IMG/VR virus record: IMGVR_UViG_3300017719_000001
DNA: 58,559 nt
Source of the DNA: an uncultured virus (IMG/VR IMGVR_UViG_3300017719_000001)
Taxonomy: Duplodnaviria > Heunggongvirae > Uroviricota > Caudoviricetes
Direction: 5' to 3' (one strand)
The notes beneath the pieces are model-generated. The model saw only the letters and a list, made by a program, of their open reading frames with translations, was not told the DNA's origin and did not search any database. Position 1 is the first letter of the stretch, and each line of letters begins with the position of its first letter. A program made the translations under genes and the position numbers. Positions 13,661 to 58,559 of the stretch are shown here, in pieces.

Positions 13661-14203
13661 CTATTTGTAAAAAATATGTTCGTCTATAGTTGTAACATAT
13701 TCAAGTTCATCTGCCCAATAAGGCAGTATATAATCGGCATGATACCATAAAGCACCTTCCGTAATGTCAGGATAAGTACTTGTTAAAACCATTTCGGCAA
13801 TAATAAGTGATTTAGCCCATGTTTTTGAGTCCACAGGTTCATCTGATAACCCATCACAGTACCAACTAAATTGACATTTATTCCTGATAGGAACTTCATT
13901 GCCCTTCCAATTAATTTTCGTGTAGCCTTGATACACTACATCACAGATAGTATCTGGAAATTGTGTATCCATAACTCTATTTATAACTACATGAGATACT
14001 GCAAGTTTTCCTGCAAAGGATTGATTTGCTGCTTCAAAATAAATGTTTTTGGCCAGGCAGACTTTATCTTGATCTGCTGGTAAGGGGATATAGTGTCCGT
14101 GGAATGAATAAAATTCTTCGTCTCCTGTATCAGCTGCTACTGTTGCTACTAATACAAACCAAAAGAATAAAATTGCTTGTAGTGTTAAGATTAAATATTT
14201 CAT
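13661..14203 (-). CDS. Cell wall hydrolase (SleB/Hydrolase_2)
   Basis: CLAKNIYFEA, VVINRV...FPDTICDVVYQ, CQFSWYCDG, HIFY; signal peptide. Confidence 0.92.
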   Translation of the reverse strand: MKYLILTLQAILFFWFVLVATVAADTGDEEFYSFHGHYIPLPADQDKVCLAKNIYFEAANQSFAGKLAVSHVVINRVMDTQFPDTICDVVYQGYTKINWKGNEVPIRNKCQFSWYCDGLSDEPVDSKTWAKSLIIAEMVLTSTYPDITEGALWYHADYILPYWADELEYVTTIDEHIFYK

Positions 14204-15054
14204 ATCTGACTCCTAATATAATCTCTTAAATCTTTCTCAGCAGACCAGCCGAGAGCTTTTAATTTGTCTGTTTTTAATTCACCATCCATTCTGTTACCAG
14301 GCTTTTCAGGTTTCATTTCTGGTTCACAACCTAGCATATCAACTAGGTCCAGAATGGAATATTTATAATCATTACCAATTCCATAACCATCTCCGTTACC
14401 TCTAAAGCCTGCAAGCATTAAGCCAGAGACAATATCATCAACGTGAGTGAAATTTCTTAATTGAGTTCCAGGCGAAGTGACTGGAAGTGGATCGTCTGAA
14501 AACATAGCTTTATCTATGAATTTCTGAACCACTGTAGCATATTTACCAGTACCTTTCTCACCCTTACCATAAACATTATAAAAATACACAATACTATACT
14601 CAAGTCCATACCATTCAGCAAAGTTTTTAAGTAGTTCGGTATTTTGAGCTTTAGTAAAAGCATAAGGACTCTGTGCACTACCAACTTCACCTACTGCAAA
14701 TTTAGTAGATGAGCCAGAGTAAATAAATTTAGCATTCTTTTCTTTTGCAAATTTGAGCATTAGTGGAAATGTTGTTAAATTATAATCCATAACTATATCG
14801 AGATCTTCAAATGATTGCTCTACTCTAGCATATTCTCCTAAATGGAAAATATAATCAAATTCTTTCTCTGCCATATTAGATTGTCTAATGAATTTACAAT
14901 CTTGAATCCAATAATCAACTGCAGGATGTCTTGGATTATCACTACTATTAAAGTGATTATCAACCGAAGTTACTTTATGGCCAAGATCAGCCAAAGTATG
15001 AACTAAATGAGAACCAACTAAGCCCTCTCCTCCTGTTACTAAAATATTACTCAT
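14200..15054 (-). CDS. NAD-dependent nucleotide-sugar epimerase/dehydratase
   Basis: VTGGEGLVG, SPYAFTK (YxxxK), FYNVYG, RNFTHVDD. Confidence 0.9.
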   Translation of the reverse strand: MSNILVTGGEGLVGSHLVHTLADLGHKVTSVDNHFNSSDNPRHPAVDYWIQDCKFIRQSNMAEKEFDYIFHLGEYARVEQSFEDLDIVMDYNLTTFPLMLKFAKEKNAKFIYSGSSTKFAVGEVGSAQSPYAFTKAQNTELLKNFAEWYGLEYSIVYFYNVYGKGEKGTGKYATVVQKFIDKAMFSDDPLPVTSPGTQLRNFTHVDDIVSGLMLAGFRGNGDGYGIGNDYKYSILDLVDMLGCEPEMKPEKPGNRMDGELKTDKLKALGWSAEKDLRDYIRSQI

Positions 15055-16238
15055 TAATTATCTCCAAATACATCTCTTGTATACACTTTATCTTTAACAT
15101 CATTTAAGCATTTCTCCATTCTATTAGTTACAATCACATCACTTAACTTCTTAAACTTATTTAGATCACTTTCAACCACACAGTTCATAAATTCGCCGTC
15201 AAAACCAAATTCCGGCTCGTGAATAATTACTTTACAATGTGGAGTTAGACGCTCGATAATACCTTGAATTGCTGAACTTCTAAAGTTATCTGATCCACTT
15301 TTCATAATCAATCTATGAATACCTACAATTTTAGGATTATTATGTAGTATTTGATTTGCAATATGATCCATTCTTATATCATTTGAATACACCACAGAAC
15401 TAATAAGTCTATTAGGTATTCTGTTTTCTTTATAATTAGCTAGTAGCTGTTTAGTATCTTTAGGGAAACAATAGCCACCATAACCAAAACTAGGATTACA
15501 ATAGTGTTTACCAATCCTTGAATCACCAACAACACCTTCAATAATTTGTTTTGTATCTAGTTTATGAAATTCAGCAAAGGTATCTAGTTCATTAAAAAAT
15601 GCCACACGCATAGCAAGGTAGCCGTTAGCAAATAATTTAACTGATTCTGCTTCTCTATTGCCACAATAGGTAACTGGTGGCATTGGAAAGTTTTGAATGA
15701 TGGAATCATACATTAATTCTACCCAATCAACTCCTGCCTGGTCTTGATTACCTACTACAATTCTTTCAGGTCGTAAGCAATCCCTAAGTGCACTACCTTC
15801 TCTTAAAAATTCTGGAGAGAAAAACACTCTGTCATTATTAAGTGAATCTACAAAGCCGATTGGAATAGTTGATTTAATCACGATATTAGTTTCTGATTTG
15901 TCCCAATCCACGTGGTTCCACATTGCCTCAGCAATGCAATCCTCGACAGTTTTAGTATTAAAATAATTAGTTTCTGTACAGTAATCTGTAGGAGTAGCAA
16001 TAATAACCCAGTCAGGATTAGCATATGCCTTTCTCTTATCAGTAGTTGCAACTAGATTGAGTTTATCCTTTTCAAATGAATCAATAATATTAGCATCAAT
16101 AAGAGGTGAAATTCTGTTATTAATTTTTTCTACTCTATCTCCGTCAATATCTAAAATTGTAACTTCATTGTGTTTGGCCAGCATGGTAGCGTTGGCTAAA
16201 CCAACATAACCTGAACCTACTACAGTAATTTTTTTCAT
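15054..16238 (-). CDS. ugd: UDP-glucose 6-dehydrogenase
   Basis: GSGYVG, IKSTIP, SPEFLREG, GYGGYCFPKD, KVYTRD. Confidence 0.95.
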   Translation of the reverse strand: MKKITVVGSGYVGLANATMLAKHNEVTILDIDGDRVEKINNRISPLIDANIIDSFEKDKLNLVATTDKRKAYANPDWVIIATPTDYCTETNYFNTKTVEDCIAEAMWNHVDWDKSETNIVIKSTIPIGFVDSLNNDRVFFSPEFLREGSALRDCLRPERIVVGNQDQAGVDWVELMYDSIIQNFPMPPVTYCGNREAESVKLFANGYLAMRVAFFNELDTFAEFHKLDTKQIIEGVVGDSRIGKHYCNPSFGYGGYCFPKDTKQLLANYKENRIPNRLISSVVYSNDIRMDHIANQILHNNPKIVGIHRLIMKSGSDNFRSSAIQGIIERLTPHCKVIIHEPEFGFDGEFMNCVVESDLNKFKKLSDVIVTNRMEKCLNDVKDKVYTRDVFGDN

Positions 16239-16247
16239 AATAATTCC

Positions 16248-17159
16248 TTAAAAAGTATTCTTGTAAACATATTCCAGGGCTCTCTCTGCCTCTGTATCTA
16301 AATTTCTTTTTTCATACCAGTTGCCAGTTTCTAGGTCTAGTTCACGACACAGGTATGCAATTTCTTTTGCATTAATTGGATATTTAGCCTGTATAGCATT
16401 ACCAGCCAAAGCAACCATGATCTGATACATCTTGTGGTACCAACCAGTACCAGATATTGTTTTATATTCTTTTTCTAGCTTTCTAGGGAAGAATGGGCAA
16501 TCTCTGTAACCAGTCCACTTAACACTAGTATTATTTAGATTATTTTTTAAGTGGGACATCATAGCTTCTTGCATTTTCTTTGGAAGTTTATCAAACATCG
16601 TGTTACCACTTGGTTCTACATATTCCCATTTATTCATTAATTCAATAGGGTCAACTCTAGGTCCTTCATTTGTAAATATAAAATTATTAGCATCTTTATA
16701 TTTGCCTGGGATATAATACATACGAGATAAATCTTTTGTCTGAATATCTCCAACTTCACCCAACTCTTTATTTATAGCAAACCAGAAGTGTTTAATTTTA
16801 TCTTTACTAATTGATTTGGTAAGAGGAAATACAAGTCGGAATTTGGGTTGTTCATCAGTTGATGATGCTGTAGAGTAGCACACATAATAATAGTCGCTGA
16901 CTTTATAATCACTAATATCACCTTGATAATCGTCTACATCTACAGCACACCAGCCTCCCCAAGCAGTAACATTGTCGTTCTTTCGTGTTGTACCTGGTAG
17001 GTAAACAGCGGGCGACATTAGTTCTGCATCCTTCTTGCCTTTCCTTGGTTTCTTAGCCAGATTGTAAAGCACTTGTTCGAAATGCTCGAAATCCGGCAAA
17101 CTAATTTGTTTGTCGGTCTTAGTGTCAAATAATGACTCGAAAAGAGTACCTTTAATCAT
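16248..17159 (-). CDS. Primase-like protein (AEP/Prim-Pol-related)
   Basis: AVDVDD (DxD), YSTASS...PKFRLVFPL, DLSRMYYIP. Confidence 0.65.
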   Translation of the reverse strand: MIKGTLFESLFDTKTDKQISLPDFEHFEQVLYNLAKKPRKGKKDAELMSPAVYLPGTTRKNDNVTAWGGWCAVDVDDYQGDISDYKVSDYYYVCYSTASSTDEQPKFRLVFPLTKSISKDKIKHFWFAINKELGEVGDIQTKDLSRMYYIPGKYKDANNFIFTNEGPRVDPIELMNKWEYVEPSGNTMFDKLPKKMQEAMMSHLKNNLNNTSVKWTGYRDCPFFPRKLEKEYKTISGTGWYHKMYQIMVALAGNAIQAKYPINAKEIAYLCRELDLETGNWYEKRNLDTEAERALEYVYKNTF

Positions 17160-17168
17160 AATATAAGT

Positions 17169-17198
17169 ATTATATCACATATTGTCGGGATTGTAAAC
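17169..17198 (-). promoter_or_regulatory. Early sigma70-type promoter
   Basis: GTTTACA-17-TATAAT. Confidence 0.75.
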
Positions 17199-17205
17199 CC
17201 CTAAG

Positions 17206-18051
17206 TTAAAAAAAATCTGATAAATTATTTCCATTTAAATCTATCTTCTGGCCGATCGGCATATGAGTATATCGTTTCCATATACGAGATGGTTGTATCT
17301 TTACTCTGCCATATTGTTCTGTAATTTTAAAAGCACCTGGCCAATATTTCTGTAATCCTAATGAGCGTTTCATTCTCCACTCATTAGAGTTATCATTTCC
17401 ACCTGAATTGGTACTTGTAGTTTCCTTTCCTATACAGAATCTATTTAAGAGTAACGTGCAGTATTTTTGTTCTAAAACTTGTAAGCTATAGTCAGTATCT
17501 TCTACAACATCAGGTCTCCAATTAGCAAGTACTTGATTGTTTACTAATACACAGCTATAAACTTGTTTATTTACATCTACCTCATTGTCTCTAGCAAAGG
17601 CAAAACCAACATGACATAATCCTAGAATACCTATATTATCATATTCTCTTACATAAGTCTCTGACGCAGAGAGAATATTTTTAGCACTATATTTGACATT
17701 TTTATTATTAACTCTAATTCTAAAGTCTTTAATATTATCATCCATCTGCCAATGATATTCCCAATCGTTTTGAGCACTATGAATTTTGCAATAGTTTCTA
17801 ACATAATCAACCCCTTGGTTATCCATAGGAAGTTTAATCAATTGTTCTCTTGTAAAAACTTCTCTATAGCTGGTGTAATCCTGAGGTTCAACTACTATAA
17901 AGTACTTTAAACCAGCATCTTCTAGGGCTTGTGCAGTTGACTTTTTAGGTCTAGCTTTAGATGGAATGTAAATTGGATATTGAACCATATTATACGAATC
18001 AATATCGGCCAGTAACTTTTTTGCATTTTTCTCTAAAACTTCATGGGTCAT
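17206..18051 (-). CDS. GREB1/TAGT-like (TET-associated) glycosyltransferase 1
   Basis: YPIYIPSKAR, YHWQMDDNI, VYSCVL, EDTDYSLQVL, GG. Confidence 0.8.
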   Translation of the reverse strand: MTHEVLEKNAKKLLADIDSYNMVQYPIYIPSKARPKKSTAQALEDAGLKYFIVVEPQDYTSYREVFTREQLIKLPMDNQGVDYVRNYCKIHSAQNDWEYHWQMDDNIKDFRIRVNNKNVKYSAKNILSASETYVREYDNIGILGLCHVGFAFARDNEVDVNKQVYSCVLVNNQVLANWRPDVVEDTDYSLQVLEQKYCTLLLNRFCIGKETTSTNSGGNDNSNEWRMKRSLGLQKYWPGAFKITEQYGRVKIQPSRIWKRYTHMPIGQKIDLNGNNLSDFF

Positions 18052-18365
18052 TCTACAATCTCATCTACACTATCATCAATAGAATCTTCAGGCATATAAC
18101 GCAATAGACTATTTGCTTTCTTATCCAGCGGTGGATACCAAATTGCTTTAGTCTTTACAGTCATATTTAATTGCTCGATGACTTTGGCAAACTCCATAAG
18201 ATCTTCTTGGTTTCTAAATCTGACCTTTAATACCTTCCAAGCCTCAGCTTCTGGTTGATCGAATTCAGGCATACCATCCCAATCATAGGGTGTTGCTTCA
18301 TCTTCTTGACCTGTCATTACAAACAGATTTTCGGGTTGATAGTTTAGAGTTTTATTATTCCTCAT
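18048..18365 (-). CDS. Hypothetical protein between the TAGT genes
   Basis: WDGMPEFDQ...VRFRNQEDLMEF...TKAIWYP; overlaps both neighbours. Confidence 0.75.
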   Translation of the reverse strand: MRNNKTLNYQPENLFVMTGQEDEATPYDWDGMPEFDQPEAEAWKVLKVRFRNQEDLMEFAKVIEQLNMTVKTKAIWYPPLDKKANSLLRYMPEDSIDDSVDEIVE

Positions 18366-19323
18366 TTGCTTCCTCCATTTCATTTATTACATTATCTTCG
18401 GGTTTGATTCTTACGAGTTTTAACCCATAGTTATCTGGCCCTTTAGGTATATTTAGTCCTTCTTTCAGCGTAGGTTTAATGCCTTTCTGAAATACTCTAT
18501 AGTCAACATGATGGTGATACCTACCCCATTTCTGTGTAATGTGAACTACATCCGGATGTTGATCCTTAAGTGATTGAGCAAATACAAGTCGGTTATCATA
18601 ATTTTCTCCACCTGCATCTTGAGTACTTCCACCCATTTTATCGACACCATAGACTTCAGCAGTATTACCACCTTTCATAGTCATAGTTGCAACTTTACCA
18701 CATAAGAAAGCATTATACAAGAATGTATGATAACCTGCTTTCATCACTTTAAGTGATAAATCAGTATCCTCATTATACCTACCACGCCATGAGAGCTCGG
18801 GGTATATGTCATTAGATAAACAAATACAACTATAAACTCTAGTGTTATGATAATAAGGAGGTCGTTTGGTAGTAGCTGGTGCAAAGAATGCATAGTTCAT
18901 ACCGAACATTTTAACATCTTCATATCTATCAGCAAAGTCTTCACATACTCTAAAACCTGTAGCATCAGTAATTTTTACTTTTTTGTTTTGATGTAAACGA
19001 TAGAAGTGTAAGATGTTATCATCTAAAATCCAGTGACGTTTATCACCATTGCTTTTAGAATGTTCCCATACAAAGTTACGAACAGGAATAGAACCACCTA
19101 AATGTCCAGTCACTTCACAGCGGTGAGCCCATTTTGGATTATCTCTAAAGCCCTCGGGTAATACAAGAATATTTTTAGGATCAATTACAGCACTATAAGC
19201 TGGGTATTCTGATTCTTCAATAACAATTGTATAAGGACAGTTCATTGCCTCAAGAGTTTTAACAGTGAGACGAGAATCTGCACGGCCTTTAGAAATTATA
19301 TAAATTGGATATTTGGGTTGCAT
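18355..19323 (-). CDS. GREB1/TAGT-like glycosyltransferase 2
   Basis: YPIYIISKGR, RNFVWEHS, HWILDDNI, WRGRYNEDTDLSL, TMKGGNT. Confidence 0.82.
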   Translation of the reverse strand: MQPKYPIYIISKGRADSRLTVKTLEAMNCPYTIVIEESEYPAYSAVIDPKNILVLPEGFRDNPKWAHRCEVTGHLGGSIPVRNFVWEHSKSNGDKRHWILDDNILHFYRLHQNKKVKITDATGFRVCEDFADRYEDVKMFGMNYAFFAPATTKRPPYYHNTRVYSCICLSNDIYPELSWRGRYNEDTDLSLKVMKAGYHTFLYNAFLCGKVATMTMKGGNTAEVYGVDKMGGSTQDAGGENYDNRLVFAQSLKDQHPDVVHITQKWGRYHHHVDYRVFQKGIKPTLKEGLNIPKGPDNYGLKLVRIKPEDNVINEMEEANEE

Positions 19324-52755: not shown

Positions 52756-53505
52756 TTACCCCATGTAGAAGTCAACTGGTTGTTCCCAATTCAGCCTAAC
52801 TTCTTCTTCTAATTTCTGTAGCTCTTCATTTGCATCATCAAACAACTGTCTGCCATTAAAAGTAACACCACCTGGCATTACCATTCCTTCAAATTTAATT
52901 AAATTTGCGCCCCATTGTCTTTTTAGTAATGCTGTGCAATATTTCTTTAAATAGTAATCATTATATACATCTGTATATGTTTCTGGATCTAAAATTCTAT
53001 AGGCTTCTACTAGAAGATAGTCATTAACTTTTACTTCATTTTGCCAATCCATATCTATACGAAGTTGATCTCTGTGTCTATCGAATGAAACAAATTTATC
53101 AGATGAATCAACTAACATATCTAGTGTAGAAAGATATTCTCTAGCCATAGAATATTCTAATAAAGAACCAAGATAACCTAATGAGAACATATCGTTCAAA
53201 TGCATCTGATATTTAATATCAAACATACCTGATGATGAGCCTGAAGCTCGAATAGGCATTAATCTAATAACATCTGTAACTAATTCTGGAATGGGAATAT
53301 AACCATTATCTATATCAGTTTGTGTTACTTGATGCTTTAAAAATACCTTTTCAATGGCATCTGCATGATAGTGCTGATAGAATTGCAGACCTTCGTCTAC
53401 TCTATCTTCAATTTGATCTTCATCAATATTAATTTCAATGACTGGTGCACCTAAAGACCTTAAACAATAGTCTATAAGTGTTTGTCTACTATTTGGTTTT
53501 GCCAT
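52756..53505 (-). CDS. 13: Neck protein gp13
   Basis: YCLRSLGAPVIEIN, KRQWGANLIKF.G..MPGGVT.NG. Confidence 0.95.
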   Translation of the reverse strand: MAKPNSRQTLIDYCLRSLGAPVIEINIDEDQIEDRVDEGLQFYQHYHADAIEKVFLKHQVTQTDIDNGYIPIPELVTDVIRLMPIRASGSSSGMFDIKYQMHLNDMFSLGYLGSLLEYSMAREYLSTLDMLVDSSDKFVSFDRHRDQLRIDMDWQNEVKVNDYLLVEAYRILDPETYTDVYNDYYLKKYCTALLKRQWGANLIKFEGMVMPGGVTFNGRQLFDDANEELQKLEEEVRLNWEQPVDFYMG

Positions 53506-53527: not shown

Positions 53528-53544
53528 TATTTATACTATTTATA
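53528..53544 (-). promoter_or_regulatory. Tandem T4-type late promoters (gene 13)
   Basis: TATAAATA at 53528-35 and 53537-44. Confidence 0.75.
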
Positions 53545-53561: not shown

Positions 53562-55589
53562 TTATAATATATCGCCAGGATATCTGCTACTCCACATGGT
53601 TAAACTATATTTAGTACCTTTAGTTAATTCAGTACACTCATGGCCGTGTGTAACCATACCCGGAAATAGAATCATCTTGCCTGGTGGAATATCTTTATTA
53701 CTAATCCCCTGCCTAGGAAACAATAAATCTCCGCCTTCAAAATTATTATTTAGTTTTACAGAGCCAGTAACCAAACTTGCATCATTGTGTAAATTTAATT
53801 TTCTTTGAGTATCCATGGAGTATTTCATTACAAATGCATCTCTCATGCCATACATCTCCATAGGATGCCAATATTTTTCAACAATGGGATAAATAGATTC
53901 TTCCCATGTTCTGCATAACATATTCCAAATGTTTAATTGTTTTAATCTAATTTCTTGTGCAGGAAATTTATCATCTTCTAAACTTTTAAACCCACCATTG
54001 GCTTCTGCCATTTTAATAAGTGTATTACATTGTTGTTCGTCCATAAAATCAACTATGATCATATCTTTTTCTAAAACATCAAATCTACCATATTGATTAA
54101 TTCTAAATAATGATGGAAGATCATTATGATAAGATCTATCTACGTGTTCGGTAAACAGCCTATCATAAGTAGCCCAATTAGAACTTAAATTATTACCATG
54201 GTAAACACACCCACAAGTATTTGTTATAGGATTCCACATCTGTCCATTTTCTAATTTAGCCATAGCAGACTCATTAGTCTGAAAGATGTAACAATCATAA
54301 TCAATTGTTTGGTCATGCATTCGCTCTTGTTGACGAGCAAATAGTCTTTGGCAAAATTCTTGATCATCTACAAACGAATTGTGGTCTTTAGCTTTACAAA
54401 AATCCTTAGCATTCTTATACTGTGAAAATAATTCCTTTATAATCCAGGCCCTTCCTATATAACCACCACTGTTTAAAAACAAATAAGGTGAACTGGGTTT
54501 ATCCGGCCCTGCATTCTTTTCCATTAATCTAAATTCATTATATTTTTCGCCAAAGGTCCTTGATAAATCTTCATCATCTTCGCACGGCCATAAGTGGGTT
54601 TCTCCAGCCCATACAATATCATAATTAAACTCTAAGAATCTATCTACTATTGTATCACCATCATCAACAAAGAATGTATCATAGCCATCAGTAAAAAATA
54701 CAATGTCCATATCATCAACTTCATCTGAGTGAACAAAATCGTGCATGATTTTTATTTTCGGTCCACCACCAAAACTTTCCATTGAATCTTCCCAATCATA
54801 ATCTTCTCCAATGTTTTTTAATGGTACTCCATATTTTTCAGCACTCTTAAATAAATTTTTAGTTTTATCAGAGTCTGTACCGATAGTACAAAAGTGAACT
54901 TTCGAGTAATCTTTAAATTTTTCCAATTCGTAAGTATTAACTTCTATAGAGCTTGGATTCTCTGCCCGAGGAATTTGATTACAAGAATCTTCTTTTAATG
55001 CCCATACATTTAAATTCTTTTTTCGATGCATATAAGGCAAATATTCATCAACTACTACAAGTTCTTTTTCAAAGCTGTCTATTAATATTTTAGCACCTTT
55101 GGGCGTTAAAACATATCCAGTCATATTATATGGATAATCAGGGGATACTAATTTATCATCTGTAGTATGTGGAACAACACCATCGGGCCCCATATGTAAC
55201 TGAGCATCATTATGCTGTAAATACAGAAAATCACAATCTTCTCTTTTTATTACTTCTTCGTAGTATTTTTCATCCCATAAATCCCAATTAATAATAACAT
55301 CATCTTCTAAGATAATCATAGTTTCATTAGAATTTAAAACTTCTTTCCAGCAATTTAAATGAGAAATTGAACACCCAAGTTCACCTTTCTTCATTCTTTG
55401 GACACCAGCTGCGGGTACACTTCTCCATGATTTATGAACATCATACCCCATATCTAAAACATCAGAATAAGAAGTAGTATCTCCATAAATTGCTTCTATG
55501 AAATTATAATCTTTTAAGGATTCATTGTTCTTTTCAAACAATTCTTTTCGATCGGTACGGTGTGTTAGGTTTATAACTAATTTTTTCAT
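53562..55589 (-). CDS. Tri-domain GT25 (COLGALT-like) + PLOD-type glycosyltransferase + 2OG-Fe(II) lysyl-hydroxylase-like protein
   Basis: GT25: INL..RTDR, GELGC.ISH..CW, ILEDD, VDEYLP. PLOD-GT: GGGPK, FTDGYD, FLNSGGYIG, DDQ, HGN. LH: FVMKY...HNDAS...FPG..TH.H....GTKY. Confidence 0.85.
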   Translation of the reverse strand: MKKLVINLTHRTDRKELFEKNNESLKDYNFIEAIYGDTTSYSDVLDMGYDVHKSWRSVPAAGVQRMKKGELGCSISHLNCWKEVLNSNETMIILEDDVIINWDLWDEKYYEEVIKREDCDFLYLQHNDAQLHMGPDGVVPHTTDDKLVSPDYPYNMTGYVLTPKGAKILIDSFEKELVVVDEYLPYMHRKKNLNVWALKEDSCNQIPRAENPSSIEVNTYELEKFKDYSKVHFCTIGTDSDKTKNLFKSAEKYGVPLKNIGEDYDWEDSMESFGGGPKIKIMHDFVHSDEVDDMDIVFFTDGYDTFFVDDGDTIVDRFLEFNYDIVWAGETHLWPCEDDEDLSRTFGEKYNEFRLMEKNAGPDKPSSPYLFLNSGGYIGRAWIIKELFSQYKNAKDFCKAKDHNSFVDDQEFCQRLFARQQERMHDQTIDYDCYIFQTNESAMAKLENGQMWNPITNTCGCVYHGNNLSSNWATYDRLFTEHVDRSYHNDLPSLFRINQYGRFDVLEKDMIIVDFMDEQQCNTLIKMAEANGGFKSLEDDKFPAQEIRLKQLNIWNMLCRTWEESIYPIVEKYWHPMEMYGMRDAFVMKYSMDTQRKLNLHNDASLVTGSVKLNNNFEGGDLLFPRQGISNKDIPPGKMILFPGMVTHGHECTELTKGTKYSLTMWSSRYPGDIL

Positions 55590-55625
55590 TACAAAATTCG
55601 CCTCTGCATTAATAACATATAGTAT

Positions 55626-55633
55626 TATTTATA
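55626..55633 (-). promoter_or_regulatory. T4-type late promoter for the GT25-PLOD gene
   Basis: TATAAATA 3 nt after the fibre stop codon. Confidence 0.75.
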
Positions 55634-55636
55634 CAG

Positions 55637-58558
55637 TTATTTTTTCTCTAGTTCTTCAATTCTTTTTATGAGAGCTGGATATGCCTCAAATTCGTGCATC
55701 TCTTTACATGGGTGGCTATTCTTTTTAAGTTCTTCGACTTCTGCTTTAAGTTCTTTAATTGCTTCAACTAATAGTGGTACAACCTTTTCATATCTAACTG
55801 TTAAGTAGTTCTCTCCACTTTTAGAAATTATATTATTATTATCTTCTGGGTCAACTTCTCTATCAAATGGTGCCTCGGCCACAGCTTGTGGTAAAACAGA
55901 TTGTATTTCTTGAGCCAAGAGTCCAGCATCATTTTTTCTATATTCTGGTTCAAAACCTAAGGCATCAACTTTATCGTCCCAATCGAAAGTATAACCACCA
56001 ATACTTTGTATTTTTTCTAAGGCATTAGGAATATTTAAAATATTATTTTTTAATCTAGCATCTGATGAATAAGCAGTAATATTACCAGTAGCAGTTATAG
56101 CACCGACAACTTCTAAAGCATCAGTGGCAGGAACAGAGGTATCACTAACACCGGCACCTACTGTAATACGGTTAGCAACACATAAGTATCCTCGAGTTGA
56201 TAGTGACATAGCGCCCTGAGATGCACTCATTGCATCATCTCGCCAGACAAACCCACGGTTATTATCATTATTCATCTGGAAAGTCATTGCATAATCACCC
56301 AAGTCTCCATGCCCTTGCCCAGAAACCATACCAATGCCGTAGGTTGCTGATGAACCCCATAATCTATACTTAGTATAAACATCACCTGAATTTACATAAT
56401 GGTATGTTCCACCATTAGGCCCGGCGGGCCCTGTTGCACCAGTACCACCTGTGCCTCCTGTTTGACCTTTTTGACCTTTAGCACCTGTTGCGCCAGTACC
56501 ACCTGTACCACCAGTTTGTCCTTTCTGACCTTTAGCACCGGTACCACCTGTACCACCTGTGCCTCCTGTTTGACCCTTTTGACCTTTGGCTCCTGTGCCG
56601 CCTGTTCCACCTGTGCCACCAGTTTGACCTTTCTGACCTTTTTGTCCCTTGGCACCATTGGATCCGTTACTACCATTTGTACCATTTGTTCCTGCTGCAC
56701 CTTTCTGACCTTTGGCTCCTGTTCCACCTGTACCACCTGTACCACCAGTATTACCTGTTTGACCTTTTTGACCTTTGGCACCAGTGGATCCTGTGGATCC
56801 TGTGGCACCAGACGAACCAATTAATTGGTGCATTGGATCTCTAATATATAAGTAATTAGTACCAAGACCGGACCAATTTAAAATAACAATTGAAGCCCAT
56901 TGAGCGCCAGATGTAGGGGTATATGTGTATTCCTTTGTTGCCCAAGATGTATTTACTGAACCATTCTCGAACCAGTTTGTCTTACCTGATGTATCTTCTT
57001 GGACTTGCCCATAAGATGAAGAATGAGATACTGCAGTTTTACCCGCGGGCAAAGCAGAATTATATTCATATACTCTAATATAAACACCAGAACTAGCAGT
57101 TGTATTTGACTTAATTTTTATCGAAAGCTTGTGTGTCTCACTTGATGCAAGATTAACACGGAAAGCAGGAAATGCTGCACCAATCTGGGTATCACTGCTA
57201 CTTCGTAATGACATTGCATCTTCAGTTGAATTCCAAGAAATTGTAGCAGGGTTTGAATTACTATAAGTGGGAAGTGCACCATAAGGATTATCAATTAATC
57301 CAGTTGCACCTGTACTACCTGTTGCACCTGTACCACCCGTCTGACCTTTTTGTCCCTTGGCACCAGTACCACCTGTACCACCTGTACCACCTTGTGGACC
57401 TGTCGCACCTGTTTGTCCCTTTTGTCCTTTACTTCCCGTAGCACCTGTTCCACCTGTTCCACCTGTACCACCAGTTTGTCCTTTCTGACCTTTGGCTCCT
57501 GTTCCACCTGTACCACCAGTATTACCAGTCTGTCCTTTCTGACCTTTGGCACCAGTACCACCTGTTGAACCTGTATTACCTTTAGCACCAGTACCACCTG
57601 TTGAACCAGTGTTACCTTTAGCACCAGTTGCTCCTGTTCCGCCCGTTGCACCTGTGCTACCAGTTGGTCCTTGAGCACCTGTATTACCTTTGGCACCAGT
57701 GGATCCTGTATTACCAGTCTGACCTTTTTGACCTTTGGAACCAGTAGAACCAGTTGAGCCGTTCGAACCGGGTTCACCTTTTAATCCACTATTTGAGCCT
57801 ACCCAAGCACCAGAACCATTAATAACCTGACTATTATCAACATAGTAGCCATCATTAAAGTTAGCACTTCTACCACTAGTTCTGCCGTCAGTTGAACCCC
57901 ATTCATGTGTTTCTAAAACAGCTGCAGTAGAAGTACCAGCAACTAAACTTGATGGAAATGATACACCAGATTGGTCTGCATTACTTACATTAATTTCTAC
58001 ATTTACATTAGGACCACTACTCCAAGTCAATTTAGCTTCAACAGATCCATCACCCTTTATTCTTAGTCCCGATACATTTGCATAAGTACTATTATTATTC
58101 CAGTTCGTAGTTAATACTGTTAATGAGCCAGAAGCAGATGGATTATAACCATTTGTAGCGGTAAATGATGCTCCACTATGAGCATATGTATTTAAAGAAG
58201 CAAATACCGGGCCGTGTGAGTCTTGTACAGTTAAAATATGAAACCAATTTCCTGATGAACCACTTAAACTTGACCAATTCTTTTTAGAACCACCCTCACC
58301 TTTTTGCCCTTTGGAACCTGTACCACCTGTTGAACCAGTTGACCCTGTATTACCTTGAATACCTTGAGAACCAGTTTGACCTTTCTGGCCTTTAGCACCT
58401 TGCGCGCCTGTATTACCTTGAGGGCCTGTAGAACCAGTATTACCTTTAGCACCTGTCGATCCTGTTGAACCACCAGGCCCCTGAGAACCAGTAGCACCAG
58501 TGTTACCAGTCTGACCCTTTTGACCCTTTGCGCCAGTAGAACCACCAGCACCTGTAGA
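55637..58558 (-). CDS. Collagen-like tail fibre with C-terminal S74 intramolecular chaperone (5'-truncated)
   Basis: Frame stays open from 58030 to the window end; three Gly-X-Y blocks separated by globular domains; SSDARLK...GLLAQE...[15 protein letters not shown]. Confidence 0.88.
56411..56818 (-). repeat. Collagen Gly-X-Y block ([12 protein letters not shown] units)
   Basis: Imperfect 9-nt-period coding repeat. Confidence 0.9.
57299..57787 (-). repeat. Collagen Gly-X-Y block
   Basis: Imperfect 9-nt-period coding repeat. Confidence 0.9.
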
Positions 58559-58559
58559 A
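58290..58559 (-). repeat. Collagen Gly-X-Y block (runs off the window)
   Basis: [15 protein letters not shown]... triplets. Confidence 0.9.

What the first reader, a model, noticed from the sequence alone, without database searches (positions are those of the whole stretch)
53562..58559. Candidate single-chain, animal-like collagen lysine hydroxylation/glycosylation system acting on a phage collagen fibre
Seen: the 675-aa gene has its own late promoter directly behind the fibre gene and fuses three modules. These are a GT25 domain with COLGALT-like motifs (GELGC.SH..W, LEDD, Y.LT..GA..L, VDEYLP), a PLOD/LH3-type GT domain (GGGPK, FTDGYD, FLNSGGYIG, DDQ, HGN) and a PLOD-type 2OG-Fe(II) dioxygenase (FVMKY, HxD in HNDAS, distal THGH, GTKY where PLODs have GTRY). 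In the two complete collagen blocks of the fibre I count 27 lysines, all in the Y position (G-A-K, G-Q-K, G-S-K, G-L-K), which is the X-Lys-Gly context used by lysyl hydroxylases. Established: in animals LH makes hydroxylysine, COLGALT (GT25) adds Gal and the LH3 GT domain adds Glc; mimivirus L230 combines LH and GT. Inference: this phage encodes the whole Lys to Hyl to Gal-Hyl to Glc-Gal-Hyl route in one protein and decorates its own fibre, for helix stability, protease shielding or host range. Similar genes may carry generic annotations in other marine phages, but I know of no functional description.
Basis: partly seen in the sequence, partly recalled or inferred. Interest (0 to 1): 0.93.

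Follow-up and report, generated by a model that had tools for sequence, protein, structure and literature searches.

The report
Phage collagen lysine hydroxylase-glycosyltransferase fusion
A marine T4-like bacteriophage encodes, right behind a collagen-like fibre gene, one protein that joins relatives of the three animal enzyme modules that hydroxylate collagen lysines and add two sugars, so this virus of bacteria probably sugar-coats its own fibre in the animal manner.

Summary
ORF 53562-55589 (-) encodes 675 aa with three domains: GT25 (closest solved relative COLGALT1), PLOD-type GT (LH3, mimivirus R699) and a PLOD-type 2OG-Fe(II) lysyl hydroxylase (LH3, mimivirus L230). All predicted catalytic residues are invariant in 37 aligned homologues.

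The enzyme-fibre link is supported in both directions. 27 of 32 IMG/VR enzyme loci with at least 5 kb upstream hold a collagen ORF. Those collagens have 27% Lys in Y, none in X and almost no Arg. Unselected viral collagens have 3% Lys in Y and do carry Lys in X and Arg. Contigs picked by a G-x-K-G-Q-K-G motif carry an enzyme relative in 23 of 62 cases, against 2 of 68 generic collagen contigs.

Best reading (about 0.7): the enzyme hydroxylates Y-position Lys of the phage's own fibre and glycosylates the hydroxylysine. Which sugars are added, and in what order, is inferred only. No chemistry has been measured.

The family is common in marine phages but annotated only generically. Eight literature searches found no description in phages. 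This scan has noted similar phage enzymes on other DNA before. I class it as a new variant of a known kind.

The parts
53562..55589 (-). Gene for the 675-aa three-domain enzyme (GT25 + PLOD-type GT + PLOD-type lysyl hydroxylase); the stop codon is 53562-53564
   Evidence: ORF. Pfam. PDB sequence hits. AlphaFold model with pLDDT 84.2 and pTM 0.71. Foldseek. Full-length match to phrog_61.
54915..55589 (-). GT25 domain, about residues 1-225, with the invariant E95-D96-D97 (LEDD)
   Evidence: PF01755 at 2-183. Aligns to the COLGALT1 catalytic domain, residues 5-192 against 305-493, E 3.6e-15. Foldseek 9evj 1.8e-14, rmsd 2.7 A. Invariant columns.
54186..54902 (-). PLOD-type GT domain, residues 230-468, with invariant G275-G276-x-K278, D301/D304 (TDGYD), N373-S374-G375, D408-D409-Q410 and H464-x-N466
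   Evidence: PF25342 86.9 bits. Alignment to the LH3 GT domain puts TDGYD on VDSYD and WP on WP. R699 2.6e-39. 6wfv TMt 0.79. Invariant columns.
53565..54077 (-). Lysyl-hydroxylase-type 2OG-Fe(II) dioxygenase domain, about residues 505-675, with invariant H601-x-D603, H648, H650 and K660
   Evidence: Alignment to the LH3 LH domain, 540-664 against 582-710. L230 LH domain 9.8e-12. Foldseek 6ax6 TMt 0.74, rmsd 2.0 A. Invariant columns.
55626..55633 (-). TATAAATA, a T4-type late-promoter-like motif 36 nt upstream of the enzyme ATG
   Evidence: Motif-level evidence only.
55637..58558 (-). Collagen-like fibre gene; 973 aa are visible and the 5' end runs off the window
   Evidence: ORF. Collagen PF01391 2.8e-30 and Peptidase_S74 2.5e-13. 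PHROG tail-fibre families.
58283..58552 (-). Collagen block 1 (residues 3-92, partial): 30 triplets, 8 Lys, all in Y
57293..57787 (-). Collagen block 2 (residues 258-422): 55 triplets, 14 Lys, all in Y
56405..56818 (-). Collagen block 3 (residues 581-718): 46 triplets, 13 Lys, all in Y
55880..56065 (-). C-terminal Peptidase_S74 (intramolecular chaperone of endosialidase) domain of the fibre, residues 832-893
52756..53505 (-). Context: the next gene downstream, a gp13-like head-tail adaptor. It is followed by a gp14-like neck protein, gp15, small and large terminase and the tail sheath.
   Evidence: PHROGs. Pfam.

Best explanation
The 675-aa protein is a single-chain collagen-lysine modification enzyme that acts on the phage's own collagen-like fibre in the infected cell. 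Its C-terminal 2OG-Fe(II) dioxygenase domain hydroxylates lysines in the Y position of Gly-X-Lys-Gly triplets to hydroxylysine. The two glycosyltransferase domains then build a sugar or a disaccharide on that hydroxyl group. By homology, the GT25 domain adds the first sugar, as COLGALT1 adds galactose. The PLOD-type GT adds the second, as LH3 and R699 add glucose to galactosyl-hydroxylysine. Shown here: the domain identities, the intact and conserved active-site residues, and the co-occurrence with collagens that carry Lys only in Y. Inferred: the substrate, the product, which sugars are added and in what order, and the benefit to the phage.
For: Domain identity. Pfam finds GT25 and GT_PLOD above cut-off. 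All 15 PDB hits of the family profile are collagen-lysine enzymes or GT25 proteins: LH3 3.5e-54, R699 2.6e-39, COLGALT1 3.6e-31, R655 4.6e-14, L230 9.8e-12 and bacterial GT25 5.5e-11. The AlphaFold model (pLDDT 84.2) gives the same ranking by fold.

Active sites. E95-D96-D97, D301/D304, D408-D409-Q410, H464, H601-x-D603, H650 and K660 are invariant in 37 sequences that are 43-71% identical to the query.

Link from enzyme to collagen. 27 of 32 IMG/VR loci with at least 5 kb upstream hold a collagen ORF, and 49 of 50 such ORFs lie upstream on the same strand. In 42 enzyme-linked collagen ORFs (6418 triplets) Lys is in Y 1756 times and in X 0 times, and Arg occurs once. In 89 collagen ORFs picked only by a (GGN7)x12 pattern (6490 triplets) the counts are K(Y) 214, K(X) 73 and Arg 176.

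Link from collagen to enzyme. 23 of 62 contigs picked by a G-x-K-G-Q-K-G motif hold an enzyme relative, against 2 partial matches in 68 generic collagen contigs (Fisher 6e-7). The figure is 12 of 15 for strict K(Y) collagens with at least 5 kb downstream.

Complete genomes. S-PRM1, S-CAM9 and CRP-6 each have one collagen ORF, and it is the one beside the enzyme. Pelagibacter phage Mosig has neither collagen nor enzyme.

Precedent. Passages of PMC9546862 describe mimivirus L230 as a lysyl hydroxylase plus hydroxylysyl glucosyltransferase and R699 as a galactosylhydroxylysyl glucosyltransferase.
Against: No chemistry was measured: no hydroxylysine or glycan has been shown on any phage fibre. The 2OG Pfam match is below its cut-off (23.6 against 27 bits), so the LH assignment rests on PDB and fold comparisons. 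The 2OG-binding Arg of LH3 (GTRY) is Lys here, invariantly. Five of 32 well-flanked loci have no collagen within 10 kb. Collagen was found elsewhere on the contig for 2 of 5 such fragmentary records searched; the other 3 remain open. The loci are related marine phages, so the counts are not independent events and the Fisher values overstate significance. Thr is the commonest Y residue (about 40%) and could be an alternative sugar acceptor. Lys in Y is also structurally favoured in collagen in general (recalled, not tested). Three strict K(Y) collagen loci with room downstream lack the enzyme.
Confidence: 0.7

Rival explanations
1. The substrate is the same (fibre Lys is hydroxylated) but the glycan is not the animal Glc-Gal-Hyl. 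For example, glucose or another sugar may go directly on hydroxylysine, as reported for L230. The two GTs may use other UDP-sugars, or one GT may act on the abundant Thr of G-x-T triplets.
For: L230 puts glucose directly on hydroxylysine (passages of PMC9546862). The window also encodes a UDP-glucose dehydrogenase and an NAD-dependent epimerase/dehydratase, so unusual nucleotide sugars may be available. Thr fills about 40% of Y positions. Relatives with other module sets exist: GT25 + LH forms of 739-820 aa with a different middle part, and forms with an added methyltransferase or a second GT25.
Against: The GT25 domain is much closer to COLGALT1 than to other GT25 proteins, and the second GT is closest to LH3 and R699, both of which act on Gal-Hyl. 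Sugar specificity cannot be read from these comparisons.
Confidence: 0.2
2. The protein is an auxiliary or host-takeover enzyme that remodels host surface glycans such as LPS. This is what the 'GT25 LPS biosynthesis' annotation implies, and it is what was proposed for glycosyltransferases of pelagimyophages. On this reading the neighbouring fibre is coincidental.
For: Sources name relatives 'GR25 family glycosyltransferase involved in LPS biosynthesis'. PHROGs files phrog_61 under 'moron, auxiliary metabolic gene and host takeover'. PMC7029224 (passages) suggests that pelagimyophage glycosyltransferases modify the host O-chain.
Against: The fused LH domain has no role in LPS synthesis. Bacterial GT25 scores far below COLGALT1 (45 against 111 bits). 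The tight, oriented linkage to K(Y) collagens across T4-like phages and a 45-kb roseophage is not expected for an LPS enzyme.
Confidence: 0.05
3. The hydroxylase acts on another protein of phage or host, not on the collagen fibre. Alternatively, one or more domains are catalytically dead scaffolds.
For: Five of 32 well-flanked loci lack a nearby collagen. COLGALT1 and LH3 themselves contain non-catalytic GT-like domains (recalled, not tested here).
Against: All metal- and substrate-binding residues are invariant. Collagens with Lys only in Y were found elsewhere on 2 of 5 contigs that lack an adjacent collagen. The exclusion of Lys from X and of Arg from the linked collagens points to selection on these very sequences.
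Confidence: 0.05

Closest known systems
Human LH3 (PLOD3) with COLGALT1 (GLT25D1), including their complex (PDB 8zgc, 6fxk, 9evj)
   Same: All three catalytic modules are homologous: the COLGALT1 catalytic GT25 domain, the LH3 N-terminal GT domain and the LH3 C-terminal LH domain. These are the best sequence and fold matches. The phage fusion joins in one chain two proteins that form a complex in humans (title of entry 8zgc).
   Different: The phage protein is one 675-aa chain. It lacks the middle accessory domain of LH3 (only about 40 residues lie between the GT and LH domains) and the first GT domain of COLGALT1 (the match covers chain residues 305-493 only). Lys replaces the GTRY Arg. The setting is cytoplasmic and bacterial, and the substrate is a Pro-poor collagen fibre of a virus.
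Acanthamoeba polyphaga mimivirus L230, R699 and R655
   Same: This is a viral collagen-lysine modification set. L230 is an LH plus hydroxylysyl glucosyltransferase, R699 is a PLOD-GT-type galactosylhydroxylysyl glucosyltransferase, and R655 is a GT25-type putative galactosyltransferase (passages of PMC9546862). All three are hit by the phage family profile.
   Different: The mimivirus activities sit on three proteins of a giant virus of amoebae. Here all three modules are in one chain of a bacteriophage. The phage domains score higher against the human enzymes than against the mimivirus ones: COLGALT1 111 against R655 55 bits, and the LH3 GT domain 141 against R699 138 bits.
Bacterial 2OG dioxygenases predicted to modify collagen-like proteins (Iyer et al. 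2010, PMC2938197)
   Same: The paper gives a comparative-genomics prediction that prokaryotic collagen-like or tail-collar proteins are hydroxylated by co-encoded dioxygenases (passages).
   Different: It concerns other dioxygenase families (beta-hydroxylase and PhyH types) with sulfotransferases. Cyanophage dioxygenase arrays were assigned there to secondary metabolism. The passages read do not mention a PLOD-type LH, GT25 or a PLOD GT.
Bacterial GT25 beta-1,4-galactosyltransferases (PDB 8xlz, 8xc8)
   Same: They share the GT25 fold and the DxD-type motif.
   Different: They are much weaker matches (45 bits; Foldseek 3e-8) than COLGALT1, and they are single-domain proteins.

Membership tests
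PLOD/LH-type collagen lysyl hydroxylase domain | Double-stranded beta-helix 2OG-Fe(II) fold with an HxD...H iron triad | tested here: met
   H601-x-D603 and H650 align to the HHD and THYH of LH3 and are invariant in 37 sequences. Fold match to L230 LH: TMt 0.74, rmsd 2.0 A.
PLOD/LH-type collagen lysyl hydroxylase domain | Basic residue that binds the 2OG C5 carboxylate (Arg in the GTRY of LH3; its role is recalled) | tested here: inconclusive
   The aligned residue is K660 (GTKY), invariant in the family. It is basic but is not Arg.
PLOD/LH-type collagen lysyl hydroxylase domain | Closer to lysyl hydroxylases than to prolyl or other hydroxylases | tested here: met
   The only 2OG oxygenases among the 15 PDB profile hits are LH3 and L230. 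Foldseek gives L230 1.7e-10, against PHD2 8.3e-7 and bacterial P4H 1.6e-6.
PLOD/LH-type collagen lysyl hydroxylase domain | 5-hydroxylation of Lys in X-Lys-Gly | not testable with these tools
   The evidence is indirect only: linked collagens have Lys solely in Y.
GT25 / COLGALT-type hydroxylysine galactosyltransferase | GT25 domain above the Pfam cut-off with an acidic DxD-type motif | tested here: met
   PF01755 80.8 bits against a cut-off of 24. E95-D96-D97 are invariant.
GT25 / COLGALT-type hydroxylysine galactosyltransferase | Closer to COLGALT than to LPS-type GT25 | tested here: met
   COLGALT1 111 bits, R655 55 and bacterial GT25 45. Foldseek 1.8e-14 against 3e-8.
GT25 / COLGALT-type hydroxylysine galactosyltransferase | Two-GT-domain architecture of COLGALT1 | tested here: not met
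   Only the second (catalytic) domain of COLGALT1, chain residues 305-493, is matched. The phage protein has a single GT25 domain.
GT25 / COLGALT-type hydroxylysine galactosyltransferase | Transfer of Gal from UDP-Gal to hydroxylysine | not testable with these tools
PLOD GT domain (LH3 / R699 galactosylhydroxylysyl glucosyltransferase) | GT_PLOD domain above the cut-off, with the metal-binding DxxD plus His and the acidic DDQ stretch (roles recalled from LH3 structures) | tested here: met
   PF25342 86.9 bits against a cut-off of 27. TDGYD aligns to the VDSYD of LH3, WP to WP and DDQ to DDQ. D301, D304, D408, D409, Q410 and H464 are invariant.
PLOD GT domain (LH3 / R699 galactosylhydroxylysyl glucosyltransferase) | Glucosylation of Gal-Hyl | not testable with these tools
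Full-length LH3 architecture (GT - accessory domain - LH) | Middle accessory domain between the GT and LH domains | tested here: not met
   GT_PLOD ends at residue 468 and the LH fold begins near 503. The intervening stretch is short and of low confidence. Longer relatives of 887-1159 aa have room for such a domain.

The most novel reading that the evidence does not exclude
Tailed phages of the surface ocean decorate their collagen-like fibres with the animal-type glucosyl-galactosyl-hydroxylysine. The decoration is made by a compact single-chain enzyme that corresponds to the metazoan LH3-COLGALT1 complex. Collagen lysine glycosylation would then be a widespread trait of bacterial viruses rather than one of animals and giant viruses. 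The phage enzymes, which score closer to the animal enzymes than the mimivirus ones do, would bear on where the metazoan collagen-modification toolkit came from.
Probability: 0.3. Interest if true: 0.9.

Novelty: new variant of a known kind. Interest (0 to 1): 0.8.

Why it matters
Hydroxylysine-linked collagen glycosylation is textbook animal biochemistry. The passages I read add one further case, mimivirus. I found nothing on it in bacteria or their viruses.

A compact, probably soluble, bacterial-cytoplasm-compatible enzyme that carries all three activities would do three things. It would extend this chemistry to bacteriophages, with relatives on 509 IMG/VR contigs. It would give a natural one-gene tool for making hydroxylated and glycosylated recombinant collagen in E. 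coli. It would also make it possible to test whether fibre glycosylation affects phage stability or host recognition in the ocean.

The fusion independently supports the functional coupling of LH3 and COLGALT1 seen in the human complex.

Tried and rejected
A single-protein scan of IMG/VR found only the window's own contig. The alignment-based scan was needed instead.

tblastn of collagen block 2 against the phage collection gave no match, probably because of the low-complexity filter. I replaced it with DNA-pattern scans.

The nearest held record, G001 (29 kb, 16% complete), has no enzyme match, so the missing 5' end of the fibre gene could not be recovered. L005, the IMG/VR contig identical to the window, also starts inside the fibre.

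Collagen was not found on 3 of 5 fragmentary contigs of the clade without an adjacent collagen. These records are 14-42% complete, so this says nothing about absence.

RNA-library contigs from metatranscriptome runs cover parts of both genes with 0-4 differences per listed piece. Such libraries can contain DNA, two of the runs look like one data set filed twice, and contigs cannot show transcript ends. I give this no weight beyond 'compatible with expression'.

I did not run a complex prediction of enzyme with fibre, because enzyme-substrate pairs are poorly served by that test.

I rejected the LPS-GT25 and prolyl-hydroxylase readings on the score and fold rankings.

Full report
WHAT IS THERE. 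The window is part of a T4-like marine myovirus. Almost all genes are on the minus strand. They include gp23-type capsid, gp20 portal, gp18 sheath, gp17 terminase, gp15 and neck proteins. The closest cultured relative by DNA is Pelagibacter phage Mosig, at 76% identity over the capsid gene.

At 53562-55589 (-) lies a 675-aa ORF. Directly upstream, at 55637-58558 (-), lies an ORF of at least 973 aa that runs off the window. Downstream follow a gp13-like adaptor, a gp14-like neck protein, gp15, the small and large terminase subunits and the sheath. From my recollection of the T4 map, not from a call, the fibre-enzyme pair therefore occupies the place that wac (fibritin) holds in T4. On that basis the fibre may be a neck or whisker fibre rather than a long tail fibre.

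THE ENZYME. Pfam finds GT25 at residues 2-183 (80.8 bits) and GT_PLOD at 230-468 (86.9 bits). It also finds a sub-threshold 2OG-FeII_Oxy_3 match at 596-666 (23.6 bits against a cut-off of 27).

Against the PDB, the single sequence hits LH3 in two stretches, the GT and LH domains (6e-16). It also hits the catalytic half of COLGALT1 (2e-14), mimivirus R655 (7e-8) and the L230 LH domain (4e-3).

A profile of 37 family members sharpens these scores:
- LH3: 3.5e-54
- R699: 2.6e-39
- COLGALT1: 3.6e-31
- R655: 4.6e-14
- L230: 9.8e-12
- bacterial GT25: 5.5e-11
Only 15 distinct PDB sequences are hit in all, and none is a prolyl hydroxylase.

An AlphaFold2 model (pLDDT 84.2, pTM 0.71) searched with Foldseek gives the same order:
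- LH3: 9e-23
- COLGALT1: 1.8e-14 (rmsd 2.7 A)
- LH3 GT domain 6wfv: TMt 0.79
- R699: 7e-13
- R655: 1e-11
- L230 LH: 1.7e-10 (TMt 0.74, rmsd 2.0 A)
- bacterial GT25 galactosyltransferases: 3e-8
- PHD2 and bacterial P4H: 8e-7 and weaker

In the 37-sequence alignment (43-71% identity to the query) the residues expected to bind metal, nucleotide sugar and 2OG are invariant. These are E95-D96-D97; G275-G276-x-K278; D301 and D304; N373-S374-G375; D408-D409-Q410; H464 and N466; H601, D603, H648 and H650; and K660.

The HMMER alignment to LH3 places TDGYD on VDSYD, WP on WP, DDQ on DDQ, HND on HHD and THGH on THYH. It also places GTKY on GTRY, so the 2OG-binding Arg of LH3 is an invariant Lys here.

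The protein lacks the accessory domain of LH3 and the first GT domain of COLGALT1.

THE FIBRE. The ORF has three collagen blocks, 131 Gly-X-Y triplets in all, separated by globular parts. It ends in a Peptidase_S74 intramolecular-chaperone domain. All 35 collagen lysines are in Y: 8, 14 and 13 per block. There is no Lys in X and no Arg in the blocks, although 24 Lys and 17 Arg lie in the non-collagen parts.

IS THE LINK MORE THAN ADJACENCY?

From enzyme to collagen. The family is large. A search of the 5.8-billion-protein set gave 635 clusters (90% identity) at E<=1e-3, and the best 120 all have near-full coverage (99-100%). The 50% representative library gave 102 hits at E<=1e-30. In IMG/VR, 509 of 552 candidate stretches encode a relative, and 80 loci were kept.

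Of the 32 loci with at least 5 kb upstream, 27 contain a collagen ORF with Lys in Y. The figure is 44 of all 80 loci. Most of the 36 loci without one are cut off close to the gene: 22 have less than 2 kb upstream and 9 have 2-5 kb. 49 of the 50 collagen ORFs lie upstream on the same strand.

The 5 well-flanked exceptions form a clade in which the enzyme keeps its place before the neck genes, but radical-SAM genes lie upstream of it. Five contigs that lack an adjacent collagen were searched (L047 and L069 and three others), and 2 of them carry collagens elsewhere, again with Lys only in Y (16-18 of 39 triplets).

Composition control. I picked viral collagens by a pattern blind to X and Y, (GGN7)x12. 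This gave 76 loci from 68 contigs. None holds the three-domain enzyme; two hold a weak single-domain match.

I then dropped duplicate loci and overlapping frames.
- 89 control ORFs, 6490 triplets: K(Y) 214 (3.3%), K(X) 73, Arg 176. The median K(Y) fraction is 0, and 14 of 89 ORFs reach 15%.
- 42 enzyme-linked ORFs, 6418 triplets: K(Y) 1756 (27%), K(X) 0, Arg 1. The median K(Y) fraction is 0.25, and 41 of 42 ORFs reach 15%.

From collagen to enzyme. Contigs picked by a G-x-K-G-Q-K-G-type DNA motif hold an enzyme relative in 23 of 62 cases. Generic collagen contigs do so in 2 of 68 (Fisher 6e-7). With at least 5 kb downstream the figures are 16 of 29 against 1 of 45. For strict K(Y) collagens with room downstream, 12 of 15 hold a relative; the 3 without are L261, L285 and L288. 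Some of these relatives are 739-820-aa forms with GT25 and LH but a different middle part.

Complete genomes. In the phage collection, 11 of 50,697 records have the gene. They are Synechococcus phages S-PRM1, S-CAM9 and S-8S53/55/56, Roseobacter phage CRP-6 and one uncultured marine virus. In the 4 records examined, the gene lies 1-4 genes downstream of a collagen fibre with 22-26 Lys in Y and none in X. In S-PRM1, S-CAM9 and CRP-6 that fibre is the only collagen ORF in the genome. Mosig has neither collagen nor enzyme.

Caveat. These phages and fibres are related, so the counts are not independent events and the P values are only descriptive. Still, the association spans T4-like cyanophages, the pelagiphage-like lineage of this window, and a 45-kb roseophage with a different structural module.

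MECHANISM. The most economical reading has three steps. The LH domain hydroxylates Y-position Lys of the nascent fibre chains. The GT25 domain adds the first sugar to hydroxylysine. The PLOD-type GT adds the second. All of this happens in the infected cell, before or during trimer folding.

The absence of Lys in X and of Arg from the linked collagens suggests that these collagens have evolved with the enzyme. Every basic residue in them is a potential modification site. The sugars, their order and the benefit (helix stabilisation in a Pro-poor collagen, protease shielding, receptor interactions) are inference.

The window also encodes a UDP-glucose dehydrogenase and an epimerase/dehydratase, so donors other than UDP-Gal and UDP-Glc cannot be excluded.

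A TATAAATA motif 36 nt upstream of the ATG suggests late expression with the structural genes. The motif is enriched (23 against 9.2 expected), strand-biased (22 of 23) and mostly intergenic (14 of 22). RNA-library contigs cover both genes, but this does not prove transcription.

WHAT IS KNOWN. Passages of PMC9546862 state the following. In animals LH1-3 make hydroxylysine, GLT25D1/2 add galactose and LH enzymes add glucose. Mimivirus L230 is a lysyl hydroxylase and hydroxylysyl glucosyltransferase. R699 is a galactosylhydroxylysyl glucosyltransferase. R655 is a GT25-type candidate galactosyltransferase.

The phage protein unites the three modules that mimivirus keeps apart and that humans assemble as an LH3/COLGALT1 complex (title of entry 8zgc).

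Iyer et al. 2010 (PMC2938197, passages) predicted hydroxylation and sulfation of bacterial collagen-like proteins by other dioxygenase families. They assigned cyanophage dioxygenase arrays to secondary metabolism.

The pelagimyophage survey PMC7029224 (passages) notes collagen repeats in structural proteins. It attributes the phages' glycosyltransferases to modification of the host O-chain.

Eight full-text searches returned no paper describing lysyl hydroxylation or hydroxylysine glycosylation in a bacteriophage. The library lacks most subscription journals, and I read no supplements.

Public annotations of the family are generic: 'hypothetical protein', '2OG-Fe(II) oxygenase' and 'GR25 family glycosyltransferase involved in LPS biosynthesis'. 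The ESM Atlas look-alikes are clusters of tailed-phage proteins with the same or reduced module sets, one Nucleocytoviricota cluster, and chordate PLODs.

EARLIER NOTES OF THIS SCAN. Notes on other genomes describe similar phage LH/GT fusions or split sets beside Lys-rich collagens. They are unchecked AI notes. One gave me the lead to R699 and to PDB entry 9dyt, which one search confirmed as a hit. One note on a different locus concluded against the lysine route there. I did not examine that locus.

VERDICT. The chemistry is unmeasured. The protein is not a member of the full-length LH3 or COLGALT1 architectures: the accessory domain and the first GT domain are absent. It does carry genuine members of all three catalytic domain families. 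I class it as a new variant of a known kind, with interest 0.8.

Noticed in passing
window 14200-19323 (-): There are two TET-associated glycosyltransferase (TAGT, PF20691) genes at 17206-18051 and 18355-19323. Next to them lie a UDP-glucose dehydrogenase (15054-16238) and an NAD-dependent epimerase/dehydratase (14200-15054). This suggests glycosylated DNA hypermodification and/or phage-made nucleotide sugars. No TET/JBP domain was seen among the ORFs scanned.
   Followed up: no
L001 6839-8004, L002 6839-8004, L004 6824-8004: In the cyanophages S-PRM1, S-CAM9 and S-8S55, two small 2OG-Fe(II) oxygenase genes lie between the collagen fibre and the three-domain enzyme. Their collagens are rich in Pro at X (21-31 per protein), unlike the window's fibre (6). 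They may be prolyl hydroxylases that act on X-position Pro.
   Followed up: no
L069 1087-8750: In the clade without an adjacent collagen, a block of radical-SAM/SPASM genes on both strands lies upstream of a small 2OG-FeII_Oxy_5 gene and the enzyme.
   Followed up: no
L228 15512-17773, L244 8460-10745, L255 5063-7522, L259 7220-9436, L295 5903-8149: Proteins of 739-820 aa beside K(Y)-rich collagens match only the GT25 and LH parts of the profile. Their middle part is different and unidentified, so another module appears to have replaced the PLOD-type GT.
   Followed up: no
P0170, P0175, P0183, P0187, P0199, P0213 (887-1159 aa); P0121; P0131: Longer relatives carry GT25 + GT_PLOD, a gap of about 250 aa and an OGFOD2-like/2OG domain. 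That is GT25 fused to an LH3-length protein. P0121 has a second GT25 stretch, and P0131 has an N-terminal methyltransferase. Their organisms are unknown. An Atlas cluster with GT2_4 + GT25 + GT_PLOD is mostly Nucleocytoviricota.
   Followed up: partly
L238-L240 and L270: Very large collagens have many Lys in Y (154-308) but also Arg (19-62) and a few Lys in X. They sit on 72-kb and 176-kb viral contigs with no enzyme relative in the fetched 20 kb.
   Followed up: no
window 56465-57658: Contigs from RNA libraries show joints inside the collagen repeats (skips of 780 and 881 nt, a 713-nt back-joint) and a 9-nt deletion at 57560 in one run. These are most likely repeat-induced assembly artefacts or length variants of the collagen blocks between strains.
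   Followed up: no
window 53528-53544 (-) and 21 other sites: TATAAATA is 2.5-fold enriched. 22 of 23 copies are on the coding strand and 14 of those 22 are intergenic, including a tandem pair before the gp13-like gene. This is consistent with T4-type late promoters throughout the structural region.
   Followed up: partly
window 55637-58558 (-): The fibre-enzyme pair sits immediately before gp13/gp14/gp15. In T4 (recalled) that position is held by wac (fibritin). The collagen fibre may therefore be a neck whisker rather than a receptor-binding tail fibre.
   Followed up: no
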